Shown here in pieces: positions 60,005-64,000 of a DNA stretch of 64,000 nucleotides. This DNA is from the human T2T-CHM13v2.0 reference genome, Homo sapiens: the NCBI GenBank assembly GCA_009914755.4, contig CP086569.2, forward strand, positions 32,001 through 96,000, in the 5' to 3' direction. Position 1 is the first letter of the stretch. Each line of letters begins with the position of its first letter. The position numbers and the translations under genes were made by a program. The notes under the pieces were generated by a model, which saw only the letters and a program-made list of their open reading frames with translations, was not told the origin of the DNA and did no database searches.

Positions 60005-63000
60005 ACCACCCAGTGTGGGTGGGGCCTGCAGGGCCCGGGACCCATAAATAATCAAATCCTTACCTCCGCCTGGGTGGGACCTGCAGGACCCGGGACCCAT
60101 AAATAATCAAATCCTTACCTCCGCCTGGGTGGGGCCTGCAGCACCCGGGACCCATAAATAATCAAATCCTTACCTCCGCCTGGGTGGGGCCTGCAGGGCC
60201 CGGGACCCATAAATAATCAAATCCTTACCTCCGCCTGGGTGGGGCCTGCAGCACCCGGGACCCATAAATAATCAAATCCTTACCTCCGCCTGGGCGGGGC
60301 CTGCAGCACCCGGGACCCATAAATAATCAAATCCTTACCTCCGCCTGGGCGGGGCCTGCAGCACCCGGGACCCGTAAATAATCAAATCCTTACCTCCGCC
60401 TGGGTGGGGCCTGCAGCACCCGGGATCCATAAATAATCAAATCCTTACCTCCGCCTGGGTGGGGCCTGCAGCACCCGGGACCCATAAATAATCAAATCCT
60501 TACCTCCGCCTGGGTGGGGCCTGCAGCGCCCGGGACCCATAAATAATCAAATCCTTACCTCCGCCTGGGCGGGGCCTGCAGGACCCGGGATCCATAAATA
60601 ATCAAATCCTTACCTCCGCCTGGGCGGGGCCTGCAGCACCCGGGACCCATAAATAATCAAATCCTTACCTCCGCCTGGGTGGGGCCTGCAGGACCCGGGA
60701 CCCATAAATAATCAAATCCTTACCTCCGCCTGGGTGGGGCCTGCAGGACCCGGGACCCATAAATAATCAAATCCTTACCTCCGCCTGGGCGGGGCCTGCA
60801 GCACCCGGGACCCATAAATAATCAAATCCTTACCTCCGCCTGGGTGGGACCTGCAGCACCCGGGACCCATAAATAATCAAATCCTTACCTCCGCCTGGGC
60901 GGGGCCTGCAGCACCCGGGACCCATAAATAATCAAATCCTTACCTCCGCCTGGGTGGGGCCTGCAGCACCCGGGACCCATAAATAATCAAATCCTTACCT
61001 CCGCCTGGGCGGGGCCTGCAGGACCCGGGACCCATAAATAATCAAATCCTTACCTCCGCCTGGGCGGGGCCTGCAGCACCCGGGACCCATAAATAATCAA
61101 ATCCTTACCTCCGCCTGGGTGGGGCCTGCAGCGCCCGGGATCCATAAATAATCAAATCCTTACCTCCGCCTGGGTGGGGCCTGCAGCACCCGGGACCCAT
61201 AAATAATCAAATCCTTACCTCCGCCTGGGTGGGGCCTGCAGGACCCGGGACCCATAAATAATCAAATCCTTACCTCCGCCTGGGCGGGGCCTGCAGGACC
61301 CGGGACCCATAAATAATCAAATCCTTACCTCCGCCTGGGCGGGGCCTGCAGGACCCGGGACCCATAAATAATCAAATCCTTACCTCCGCCTGGGTGGGGC
61401 CTGCAGCGCCCGGGACCCATAAATAATCAAATCCTTACCTCCGCCTGGGTGGGGCCTGCAGGACCCGGGATCCATAAATAATCAAATCCTTACCTCCGCC
61501 TGGGCGGGGCCTGCAGCACCCGGGACCCATAAATAATCAAATCCTTACCTCCGCCTGGGTGGGGCCTGCAGCACCCGGGACCCATAAATAATCAAATCCT
61601 TACCTCCGCCTGGGTGGGGCCTGCAGCACCCGGGACCCATAAATAATCAAATCCTTACCTCCGCCTGGGCGGGGCCTGCAGCACCCGGGACCCATAAATA
61701 ATCAAATCCTTACCTCCGCCTGGGTGGGGCCTGCAGGACCCGGGACCCATAAATAATCAAATCCTTACCTCCGCCTGGGCGGGGCCTGCAGCACCCGGGA
61801 CCCATAAATAATCAAATCCTTACCTCCGCCTGGGTGGGGCCTGCAGCACCCGGGACCCATAAATAATCAAATCCTTACCTCCGCCTGGGCGGGGCCTGCA
61901 GCACCCGGGACCCATAAATAATCAAATCCTTACCTCCGCCTGGGTGGGGCCTGCAGGACCCGGGACCCATAAATAATCAAATCCTTACCTCCGCCTGGGC
62001 GGGGCCTGCAGCACCCGGGACCCATAAATAATCAAATCCTTACCTCCGCCTGGGCGGGGCCTGCAGCACCCGGGACCCATAAATAATCAAATCCTTACCT
62101 CCGCCTGCGTGGGGCCTGCAGCACCCGGGACCCATAAATAATCAAATCCTTACCTCCGCCTGGGCGGGGCCTGCAGCACCCGGGACCCATAAATAATCAA
62201 ATCCTTACCTCCGCCTGGGTGGGGCCTGCAGCACCCGGGACCCATAAATAATCAAATCCTTACCTCCGCCTGCGTGGGGCCTGCAGCACCCGGGACCCAT
62301 AAATAATCAAATCCTTACCTCCGCCTGGGTGGGGACTGCAGCACCCGGGACCCATAAATAATCAAATCCTTACCTCCGCCTGGGCGGGGCCTGCAGCGCC
62401 CGGGACCCATAAATAATCAAATCCTTACCTCCGCCTGCGTGGGGCCTGCAGCACCCGGGACCCATAAATAATCAAATCCTTACCTCCGCCTGGGTGGGGA
62501 CTGCAGCACCCGGGACCCATAAATAATCAAATCCTTACCTCCGCCTGGGTGGGGCCTGCAGCACCCGGGACCCATAAATAATCAAATCCTTACCTCCGCC
62601 TGGGTGGGGCCTGCAGGACCCGGGACCCATAAATAATCAAATCCTTACCTCCGCCTGGACGGGGCCTGCAGGACCCGGGACCCATAAATAATCAAATCCT
62701 TACCTCCGCCTGGGTGGGGCCTGCAGCACCCGGGACCCATAAATAATCAAATCCTTACCTCCGCCTGGGTGGGGCCTGCAGCACCCGGGATCCATAAATA
62801 ATCAAATCCTTACCTCCGCCTGGGTGGGGCCTGCAGCGCCCGGGACCCATAAATAATCAAATCCTTACCTCCGCCTGGGCGGGGCCTGCAGGACCCGGGA
62901 CCCATAAATAATCAAATCCTTACCTCCGCCTGGGTGGGGCCTGCAGCACCCGGGACCCATAAATAATCAAATCCTTACCTCCGCCTGGGTGGGGCCTGCA

Positions 63001-64000
63001 GGACCCGGGACCCATAAATAATCAAATCCTTACCTCCGCCTGGGTGGGACCTGCAGGACCCGGGACCCATAAATAATCAAATCCTTACCTCCGCCTGGGT
63101 GGGACCTGCAGCACCCGGGACCCATAAATAATCAAATCCTTACCTCCGCCTGGGTGGGGCCTGCAGCACCCGGGACCCATAAATAATCAAATCCTTACCT
63201 CCGCCTGGGTGGGGCCTGCAGCGCCCGGGACCCATAAATAATCAAATCCTTACCTCCGCCTGGGTGGGGCCTGCAGCGCCCGGGACCCATAAATAATCAA
63301 ATCCTTACCTCCGCCTGGGTGGGGCCTGCAGCGCCCGGGACCCATAAATAATCAAATCCTTACCTCCGCCTGGGTGGGGCCTGCAGCACCCGGGACCCAT
63401 AAATAATCAAATCCTTACCTCCGCCTGGGCGGGGCCTGCAGCACCCGGGACCCATAAATAATCAAATCCTTACCTCCGCCTGGGCGGGGCCTGCAGGACC
63501 CGGGACCCATAAATAATCAAATCCTTACCTCCGCCTGGGCGGGGCCTGCAGCACCCGGGACCCATAAATAATCAAATCCTTACCTCCGCCTGGGTGGGGC
63601 CTGCAGGACCCGGGACCCATAAATAATCAAATCCTTACCTCCGCCTGGGTGGGGCCTGCAGCACCCGGGACCCATAAATAATCAAATCCTTACCTCCGCC
63701 TGGGTGGGGCCTGCAGCACCCGGGACCCATAAATAATCAAATCCTTACCTCCGCCTGGGCGGGGCCTGCAGGACCCGGGATCCATAAATAATCAAATCCT
63801 TACCTCCGCCTGCGTGGGGCCTGCAGCACCCGGGACCCATAAATAATCAAATCCTTACCTCCGCCTGGGCGGGGCCTGCAGGACCCGGGACCCATAAATA
63901 ATCAAATCCTTACCTCCGCCTGGGTGGGGCCTGCAGGACCCGGGACCCATAAATAATCAAATCCTTACCTCCGCCTGGGTGGGGCCTGCAGGACCCGGGA
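60005..64000. repeat. Tandem satellite/minisatellite array with a 55-bp unit (GGGCCTGCAG[C/G][A/G]CCCGGGA[C/T]CCATAAATAATCAAATCCTTACCTCCGCCTGG[G/C][T/C]GG), at least 72 copies; continues beyond the window end
   Basis: CCCATAAATA recurs at 60041, 60096 ... with an exact 55-bp period to the last base of the window. Variation is confined to about 3 sites per unit. Confidence 0.95.

What the first reader, a model, noticed from the sequence alone, without database searches (positions are those of the whole stretch)
60005..64000. Second large array: 55-bp unit satellite with variation restricted to three sites, GC-box-like GGGCGG in a subset of units, running off the window
At least 72 exact-length 55-bp units follow one another with no indels. 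The only variation is at positions giving GCAG(C/G)(A/G)CC, GGGA(C/T)CC and CTGG(G)(T/C)GG, or CTGCGTGG. Such high homogeneity with discrete variant states is typical of a young, actively converting array. The unit juxtaposes a GC-rich half (CCGCCTGGGCGGGGCCTGCAGCACCCGGGA; the C-variant creates an Sp1-like GGGCGG box) with an AT-rich half (CCCATAAATAATCAAATCC).

The left boundary merges seamlessly with the unique flank (...CCCAGTGTGGGTGGGGCCTGCAGGGCCCGGGA), which suggests the array arose by local amplification of pre-existing sequence. The true length is unknown because it continues past position 64000.
Basis: seen in the sequence. Interest (0 to 1): 0.55.

Follow-up and report, generated by a model that had tools for sequence, protein, structure and literature searches.

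The report
Known human pseudoautosomal 55-bp minisatellite
This is an ordinary non-coding 55-bp minisatellite at the tip of the human X/Y pseudoautosomal region 1; it was already noted on the reference Y chromosome in 2009, and its variation fits the heavy recombination and CpG and C/G mutation known there, not a special function.

Summary
The array is real. TRF finds period 55, 72.5 copies, 97% matches and no indels at 60016..64000, and it runs off the window. All nine lie in the GC-rich half.

The window is primate DNA (Alus). Its order of arrays (61-bp, 26-bp, unique DNA, 55-bp) matches a published description of the start of human chromosome Y (61, 26, unique, 55, 49, 68/81 bp). It also matches the catalogued 61-bp VNTR of pseudoautosomal Xp22.33/Yp11.32. 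So this is the distal PAR1 minisatellite cluster.

The unit has no open frame, no Rfam match and no unusual fold. It has no PRDM9 13-mer or CTCF core and no similarity to mouse mo-2 or to neighbouring arrays. Variant units are interspersed as if shuffled, and all four allele combinations occur between the common sites. That is a classical minisatellite variant-repeat map.

The main variants are CpG transitions and C/G transversions, the published PAR1 mutation signature. GGGCGG occurs in 24 of 72 units, which is motif-level evidence only.

Verdict: an already known, probably neutral by-product of extreme PAR1 recombination. Low interest.

The parts
59999..60015 (+). Degenerate partial unit at the left junction (TCCTCACCACCCAGTG, against the unit's TCCTTACCTCCGCC, with a 2-bp indel)
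   Evidence: Local alignment of the flank to the tandem consensus. Further left the flank is no better than shuffled sequence.
60016..64000 (+). 55-bp minisatellite array: 72 full units plus 25 bp, cut by the window end
   Evidence: TRF, in-register column analysis, 72 evenly spaced matches of the invariant 30-mer.
4..39778 (+). Context: 61-bp VNTR, 652 copies, 89% matches, runs off the left end. It anchors the locus as the pseudoautosomal Xp22.33/Yp11.32 61-bp VNTR.
   Evidence: TRF. Warburton 2008 Table 1, PMC2588610. Skittle Fig. 1, PMC2817707.
40037..42603 (+). Context: 26-bp array, 98.7 copies, 94% matches. It is the second member of the published 61 / 26 / unique / 55 order.
   Evidence: TRF. 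Skittle Fig. 4 legend.
43685..44642 (+). Context: degenerate 28/56-bp minisatellite in the same cluster
   Evidence: TRF.
50756..51575 (+). Context: G-rich 19/35/106-bp minisatellite in the same cluster
   Evidence: TRF.

Best explanation
The feature is a non-coding minisatellite (VNTR) of 55-bp units. It lies in the most distal part of human pseudoautosomal region 1 (Xp22.33/Yp11.32), in a cluster of tandem arrays between the Xp/Yp telomere and the first PAR1 genes.

It most likely has no sequence-specific function. It is a by-product of the region's extreme male recombination. Unequal exchange, gene conversion and replication slippage keep the units the same length and about 98% identical.

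Point changes typical of PAR1 arise repeatedly and are shuffled among units. These are transitions at methylated CpGs (cols 5 and 18), C/G transversions linked to meiotic breaks (cols 17 and 3), and GC-biased conversion pulling TpG back to CpG.

Shown here: the anatomy, the variant map, and the absence of coding, RNA or structural signals. Shown through literature: the locus identity. Inferred: the turnover mechanism and neutrality.
For: Anatomy: period 55, 72.5 copies, no indels; 76 variant cells of 3960.

Host and locus:
- Alus flank the array.
- The Skittle Fig. 4 legend lists, on human chrY, 61 bp, 26 bp, unique DNA, 55 bp, 49 bp and 68/81 bp repeats in that order. Its Fig. 1 shows the 61-mer within the first 28,670 nt of chrY.
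- Warburton 2008 lists 61-bp VNTRs at hg18 chrX:16203-34821 and 94937-106217, Xp22.33/Yp11.32.
- A large hypervariable pseudoautosomal VNTR near XpYp, with length polymorphism up to 100 kb, is noted in 10.1101/728519.

Not coding and not an RNA: 48 stops in every frame and no Rfam family.

No special single-strand structure: z = 0.3 and 0.6 against shuffles.

Minisatellite-type variant map:
- Runs tests and k-string repeats are indistinguishable from shuffles.
- Sites 5, 17, 18 and 26 show all four gametes pairwise with no association.
- There is a local 3-unit motif at units 39-47 and a run of three identical units at 59-61.

Mutation classes:
- col 5 (T/C) and col 18 (A/G) are CpG partners.
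- cols 17 and 3 are C/G transversions.
- Published PAR1 work reports excess C-to-G mutation, strong CpG mutation opposed by GC-biased conversion (PMC9575207), and the highest CpG methylation on the ape sex chromosomes (PMC11168930).
Against: - The locus assignment rests on matching repeat periods and their order to published descriptions. It is not a base-by-base alignment, because no human reference is available in these tools.
- All nine variable columns fall in cols 3-29, and the other 28 columns are identical in 72 units. P = 0.04 for any 27-column stretch, and 0.027 if only G/C-type sites can vary. That could hint at constraint on the AT-rich half.
- Two CpGs (cols 21-22 and 52-53) never vary although two others do.
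- Only one allele was seen, so length polymorphism and turnover are inferred.
Confidence: 0.8

Rival explanations
1. The array, alone or with its neighbours, is a cis-acting platform for the meiotic break machinery in human PAR1. This would be the functional counterpart of the mouse mo-2 minisatellite, which concentrates REC114/MEI4/MEI1/IHO1/ANKRD31 and secures the obligate X-Y crossover.
For: - It is a distal PAR1 tandem array.
- In mouse, mo-2 arrays are cis determinants of pro-break protein accumulation and of break formation (10.1101/536136; PMC11039559).
- Authors of PAR1 and ape sex-chromosome studies have raised the same idea for primate repeats (PMC9575207; PMC11168930).
- C/G transversion variants (cols 3 and 17) match the break-associated mutation class.
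Against: - No sequence similarity to mo-2 or mo-2-like units (P = 0.83 and 0.12 against shuffles).
- mo-2 is confined to Mus musculus and M. spretus (PMC13050634).
- Human PAR1 recombination is at least partly positioned by PRDM9 (PMC4102438), and the unit has no PRDM9 13-mer at up to 1 mismatch.
- About 4 kb is seen here, against 20-kb-plus mo-2 clusters.
- There are no binding data of any kind.
Confidence: 0.05
2. The array is a multi-copy Sp/KLF-binding, CpG-island-like regulatory element (promoter, enhancer or boundary) acting on the nearest PAR1 gene. Copy number and the C/T state at col 5 would tune its activity.
For: - 24 of 72 units carry the full Sp1 10-mer TGGGCGGGGC, and 40 carry the GT/CACCC-box form GGGTGGGG.
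- GC content is 0.589, with 2-4 CpG per unit.
- By my own recollection of gene coordinates, the array lies a few kb distal to PLCXD1.
- Other subtelomeric CpG-rich minisatellites, the 61-29-37 repeats, do act as TERRA promoters (10.1101/2025.05.15.654290).
Against: - This is motif matching only. Such G-rich 8-10-mers are common in GC-rich minisatellites.
- CpG observed/expected is 0.546, below the usual 0.6 island threshold.
- PAR1 repeats are reported as highly methylated.
- No paper links a VNTR to PLCXD1.
- No CTCF core at up to 3 mismatches.
Confidence: 0.1
3. The array is an assembly artefact, meaning a mis-expanded or collapsed repeat, and not real genomic sequence.
For: Near-identical tandem repeats are error-prone in assemblies, and the array is truncated by the window.
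Against: - A 55-bp repeat in the same position relative to the 61-bp and 26-bp arrays was already present in the clone-based 2009 reference.
- The 17 unit types are interspersed with no sign of a repeated block, which a mis-assembly would give.
Confidence: 0.02

Closest known systems
Human hypervariable GC-rich minisatellites (VNTRs) of subtelomeric regions, including the classical PAR1 loci DXYS14, DXYS15, DXYS17 and DXYS20 (locus names from my own knowledge)
   Same: Unit of tens of bp, head-to-tail, GC-rich and non-coding. Subtelomeric, in a very high-recombination region. Variant units are interspersed without higher-order periodicity, as in variant-repeat maps.
   Different: No length polymorphism, germline mutation rate or polarity could be measured from one allele. 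I found no locus name or study for this particular 55-bp array beyond a figure legend.
61-bp pseudoautosomal VNTR of Xp22.33/Yp11.32 (Warburton 2008, PMC2588610)
   Same: Same cluster, 20 kb away in this window. It is also a large, locus-specific VNTR.
   Different: The unit is unrelated. The 61-bp array is much larger (over 39 kb here), more diverged (89% matches), CpG-poor (o/e 0.105) and reported to have irregular 1.6 and 2.5 kb higher-order repeats. The 55-bp array shows none.
Mouse mo-2 minisatellite (31 bp) of the PAR and of chr4, chr9 and chr13 ends
   Same: A tandem minisatellite in a pseudoautosomal region. Hypervariable through unequal exchange.
   Different: No sequence similarity. 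mo-2 function (pro-break protein recruitment, axis remodelling) is demonstrated experimentally; nothing comparable is known or testable here.
Subtelomeric 61-29-37 bp TERRA promoter repeats (Xq/Yq, 10q and other ends)
   Same: CpG-rich subtelomeric minisatellites on the sex chromosomes, with GC-box-like content.
   Different: Those lie within 10 kb of the telomere at other chromosome ends, have few copies, and have reporter-proven promoter activity and CTCF sites. This array has no CTCF core and no evidence of transcription.

Membership tests
Minisatellite / VNTR | Head-to-tail tandem array of a unit of roughly 10-100 bp | tested here: met
   Period 55, 72.5 copies, 0% indels.
Minisatellite / VNTR | Variant repeat units interspersed along the array without fixed higher-order period | tested here: met
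   17 unit types. Autocorrelation, runs tests and repeated k-unit strings are no different from shuffles.
Minisatellite / VNTR | Non-coding | tested here: met
   48 stops in each of six frames, longest open stretch 37 aa. No Rfam family.
Minisatellite / VNTR | Copy number differs between individuals or haplotypes | not testable with these tools
   Only one allele is available. No matching contig in genome, metagenome or viral collections or in the gene index.
Human PAR1 distal minisatellite cluster (Xp22.33/Yp11.32) | Order of arrays 61 bp, 26 bp, unique DNA, 55 bp as in the reference chrY/chrX tip | tested here: met
   Window: 61-bp at 4..39778, 26-bp at 40037..42603, unique DNA with Alus, 55-bp at 60016... 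Literature. The match is by period and order, not by sequence alignment.
Classical satellite DNA with higher-order repeats | Multi-unit higher-order periodicity | tested here: not met
   No period in the variant-state autocorrelation. TRF reports only period 55.
mo-2-type PAR break-promoting minisatellite | Sequence related to the mo-2 31-mer | tested here: not met
   Local alignment score 11 against a shuffle mean of 12.7.
mo-2-type PAR break-promoting minisatellite | Accumulates REC114/MEI4/ANKRD31 and is a break hot region in spermatocytes | not testable with these tools
   Needs cytology or ChIP on human testis.
PRDM9-motif-bearing PAR1 minisatellites (Hinch 2014) | Close match to CCNCCNTNNCCNC in the unit | tested here: not met
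   No match at up to 1 mismatch on either strand in the consensus or in the four main variant units.
CpG island | GC above 0.5 and CpG observed/expected above 0.6 over more than 200 bp | tested here: not met
   GC 0.589 passes, but o/e is 0.546.
Sp1 GC-box element | KGGGCGGRRY consensus | tested here: met
   TGGGCGGGGC in 24 of 72 units. This is a motif match only.
Sp1 GC-box element | Occupied by Sp-family factors in cells | not testable with these tools
   Needs ChIP mapped to a complete assembly.

The most novel reading that the evidence does not exclude
The distal PAR1 minisatellite cluster, including this 55-bp array, is the human functional analogue of mouse mo-2. It would be a sequence-unrelated tandem-repeat platform that concentrates the pro-break machinery (REC114/MEI4/ANKRD31) and helps guarantee the obligate X-Y crossover, with array length modulating the risk of paternal XY non-disjunction.
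Probability: 0.05. Interest if true: 0.7.

Novelty: already known. Interest (0 to 1): 0.12.

Why it matters
As it stands it matters little. It is one more GC-rich minisatellite in the region of the human genome richest in them, and a 55-bp repeat in this position was already noted on the reference Y chromosome in 2009.

Its modest value is as a clean, indel-free record of PAR1 mutation and conversion. CpG and C/G variants are scattered with no linkage even between adjacent bases, so the array could be used with population long-read data to measure conversion tract lengths and turnover.

It would matter more only if human PAR1 arrays prove to recruit the meiotic break machinery, or if array length affects expression of the neighbouring gene.

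Tried and rejected
- Coding potential: rejected. There are stops in all frames. The 31-aa ATG ORFs on the minus strand are a by-product of the repeat.
- Structured RNA: rejected. No Rfam hit in 39500..64000.
- Hairpin, cruciform or G-quadruplex as a driver: rejected. Single-strand DNA folds are no better than shuffles. A canonical G4 motif occurs in only 2 units.
- Higher-order repeat: rejected.
- Origin from an Alu or from another part of the window: the best hit is a 12-mer with E = 0.29.
- Shared origin with the 61-, 26-, 28- or 35-bp arrays, or with mouse PAR minisatellites: none.
- PRDM9 13-mer, CTCF core, 5' splice site, AATAAA, minisatellite core and chi: no matches at the stated mismatch limits.
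- Fetching downstream sequence or other alleles:
  - The invariant 30-mer is absent from genome contigs, metagenome contigs and viral contigs.
  - Exact look-ups of the junction ORF and of an intra-array ORF found nothing.
- Sequence strings from the three arrays occur in no paper.
- Searches for PLCXD1 plus VNTR found nothing, and PLCXD1 plus subtelomere plus tandem repeat returned one irrelevant paper.
- The TERRA '61-bp repeat' is a different element, from Xq/Yq and 10q.
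Full report
**Observation**

Tandem Repeats Finder reports one array at 60016..64000 with period 55, 72.5 copies, 97% matches, 0% indels and score 7431. The sequence itself shows the units in perfect register up to the last base of the window. The 30-mer CATAAATAATCAAATCCTTACCTCCGCCTG occurs 72 times at exact 55-bp spacing, against none in 100 dinucleotide-preserving shuffles, and nowhere else in the 64 kb. 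The array is therefore real and far beyond chance, and it is cut by the window end.

**Variation**

Slicing the array in register gives 72 full units and 17 distinct unit types. There are 76 differences from consensus among 3960 cells. Nine columns vary:
- col 5: T47/C25
- col 17: C49/G23
- col 18: A62/G10
- col 26: C66/T6
- col 3: G68/C4
- col 9: G68/A4
- col 10: C70/A2
- col 4: G71/A1
- col 29: A71/G1

All nine variable columns lie in cols 3-29. Columns 30-55 plus 1-2 (the AT-rich half and CCTTACCTCCGCC) are identical in all 72 units. The probability of such clustering is 0.04 for any circular 27-column stretch, and 0.027 if only G/C-type positions can vary. That is suggestive, not decisive.

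GGGCGG is present in 24 units, always as TGGGCGGGGC. The alternative GGGTGGGG is present in 40.

**Left boundary**

Similarity to the unit continues about 17 bp left of the TRF start with a 2-bp indel. Beyond that the flank is no more similar to the unit than shuffled sequence. The first four units include rare types: the GG state at cols 17-18 is seen only in units 1 and 4. This is the usual picture of less-homogenised edge repeats, but it is weak evidence from one allele.

**What the array is not**

- It has 48 stop codons in each of the six frames and a longest open stretch of 37 codons. Each 31-aa minus-strand ATG ORF is a side effect of the repeat.
- No Rfam family reaches threshold in 39500..64000.
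- Two-unit single strands fold no better than shuffles as DNA (z = 0.30 and 0.60).
- A canonical G-quadruplex motif exists in only 2 units.
- There is no higher-order period. Autocorrelation of the variant states is flat. Runs tests are not significant. Repeated strings of 2-6 unit types are as frequent as in shuffles.
- The only local structure is a 3-unit motif in units 39-47 and three identical units at 59-61.
- The unit is unrelated to the Alus or any other sequence in the window and to the other four arrays of the window.

**Where it is**

The window is primate DNA, with Alu elements at about 47.1, 52.3 and 59.5 kb. It consists of:
- a 61-bp array of 652 copies (4..39778) that runs off the left end;
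- a 26-bp array of 99 copies (40037..42603);
- about 17 kb of mostly unique, Alu-bearing DNA with two smaller minisatellites;
- the 55-bp array.

A literature search for '55 bp repeat' returned the Skittle paper (PMC2817707). Its Fig. 4 legend lists, on human chromosome Y (Feb 2009 assembly) and in order: a 61 bp repeat, a 26 bp repeat, unique DNA, a 55 bp repeat, a 49 bp repeat and a 68/81 bp repeat. Its Fig. 1 shows the 61-mer within the first 28,670 nt of chrY.

Warburton et al. 2008 (PMC2588610) catalogue 61-bp VNTRs at hg18 chrX:16203-34821 and chrX:94937-106217 in Xp22.33/Yp11.32, the pseudoautosomal region. A whole-genome mapping study notes a large hypervariable pseudoautosomal VNTR near XpYp with length polymorphism up to 100 kb.

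The identical order of three unusual periods, with unique DNA in the same place, makes the assignment to distal human PAR1 very likely. It is a match of periods and order, not a base-level alignment, because no human reference is available through these tools.

Two points come from my own knowledge and were not tested here. The 61-bp array is the classical locus DXYS20. The 55-bp array should lie a few kb distal to PLCXD1, the most telomeric PAR1 gene.

**Mechanism**

PAR1 has a male crossover rate about 17-fold the genome average, and many of its PRDM9-binding peaks are minisatellite-like repeats (PMC4102438). It shows an excess of C-to-G mutation attributed to male meiotic breaks. It also shows very strong CpG mutation opposed by GC-biased gene conversion, which inflates CpG polymorphism (PMC9575207). 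PAR1 has the highest CpG methylation on ape sex chromosomes (PMC11168930).

The array's variants fit that spectrum. The two CpG/TpG-type sites (col 5 T/C before G; col 18 A/G after C) and two C/G transversion sites (cols 17 and 3) account for 62 of 76 variant cells.

The four common sites show all four allele combinations in every pair, with no association, even for the adjacent cols 17 and 18. The order of unit types along the array looks shuffled. That pattern needs recurrent mutation, or exchange patches shorter than one unit, on top of the unequal exchange or slippage that keeps the unit length fixed.

This is the classical behaviour of human hypervariable minisatellites. I therefore read the array as a probably neutral by-product of PAR1 recombination. 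The anatomy and the statistics are shown. The turnover process and neutrality are inferred.

**Rivals**

1. A human counterpart of mouse mo-2, the 31-bp PAR minisatellite that concentrates REC114/MEI4/ANKRD31 and promotes breaks.
   - The location fits, and the idea has been raised for primates.
   - Against it, there is no sequence similarity, and mo-2 is confined to Mus.
   - The unit has no PRDM9 13-mer, and nothing can be tested about protein binding.
   - I give it 0.05.
2. A Sp/KLF-binding, CpG-island-like regulatory element.
   - The motif is there in 24 units.
   - Against it, CpG observed/expected is 0.546, there is no CTCF core, PAR1 repeats are reported as methylated, and no paper links a VNTR to PLCXD1.
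   - I give it 0.1.
3. Assembly artefact. This is unlikely because the 2009 clone-based reference already had the 55-bp repeat in this position.

**Novelty and interest**

The kind (GC-rich subtelomeric minisatellite) is long known. This particular array has been in the human reference for years and has been noted in print, although apparently never studied for its own sake. A specialist would not be surprised by any measured property.

Two small oddities remain: the wholly invariant AT-rich half, and two never-varying CpGs. Both are recorded as unexplained and need population data.

I could not obtain the downstream sequence or other alleles. The published legend predicts that the array ends and is followed by a 49-bp repeat.

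Noticed in passing
window 45273..45406 and 46459..46622, + strand: Relic of a regucalcin (SMP-30)-like gene. Two exon-like blocks about 1.1 kb apart align to regucalcin residues about 189-284, and each is broken by a frameshift. The stitched 81-aa peptide hits solved regucalcin structures at E = 6e-27. tblastn with a regucalcin sequence written from memory finds only these blocks. It looks like an unprocessed pseudogene whose upstream exons may have been overwritten by the minisatellites. No paper linking regucalcin to the pseudoautosomal region was found.
   Followed up: partly
window 4..39778: 61-bp VNTR with 652 copies and 89% matches, running off the left end. It is CpG-depleted (o/e 0.105, GC 0.49), in contrast to the 26-bp and 55-bp arrays. 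It corresponds to the pseudoautosomal 61-bp VNTR reported to have irregular 1.6 and 2.5 kb higher-order repeats. At over 39 kb contiguous it is larger than either block in hg18.
   Followed up: partly
window 40037..42603 (ORF 40038..42851, minus strand): The 26-bp array (99 copies, 94% matches, GC 0.67, CpG o/e 0.78) carries a 937-aa open reading frame on the minus strand, with a 26-aa periodic peptide (PLFLSRPETPSSCHGPRPPLPVTARD). It is probably an accident of a stop-free unit read in three phases, but I did not check it against protein databases.
   Followed up: no
window 43685..44642 and 50756..51575: Two further, more degenerate minisatellites: a 28/56-bp unit (65-76% matches for the 28- and 56-bp rows, with indels) and a G-rich 19/35/106-bp unit (AGAGAGGGGGGTAGCT...). 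At least five unrelated tandem arrays are therefore packed into this 64-kb stretch.
   Followed up: no
window 62106..62600 (units 39-47 of the 55-bp array): A local three-unit pattern: the col-3 C variant at units 39, 42 and 45, and the col-10 A variant at units 43 and 46. This suggests a recent duplication of a 165-bp block inside an otherwise shuffled array. Clustering is P = 0.06-0.08 per site.
   Followed up: partly
window 60016..64000, minus strand: Every unit carries GGAGGTAAGGA, a near-consensus 5' splice-site-like string (2 mismatches to MAGGTRAGT), and an ATG opening a 31-aa ORF that spans into the next unit. There is no evidence that either is used.
   Followed up: no
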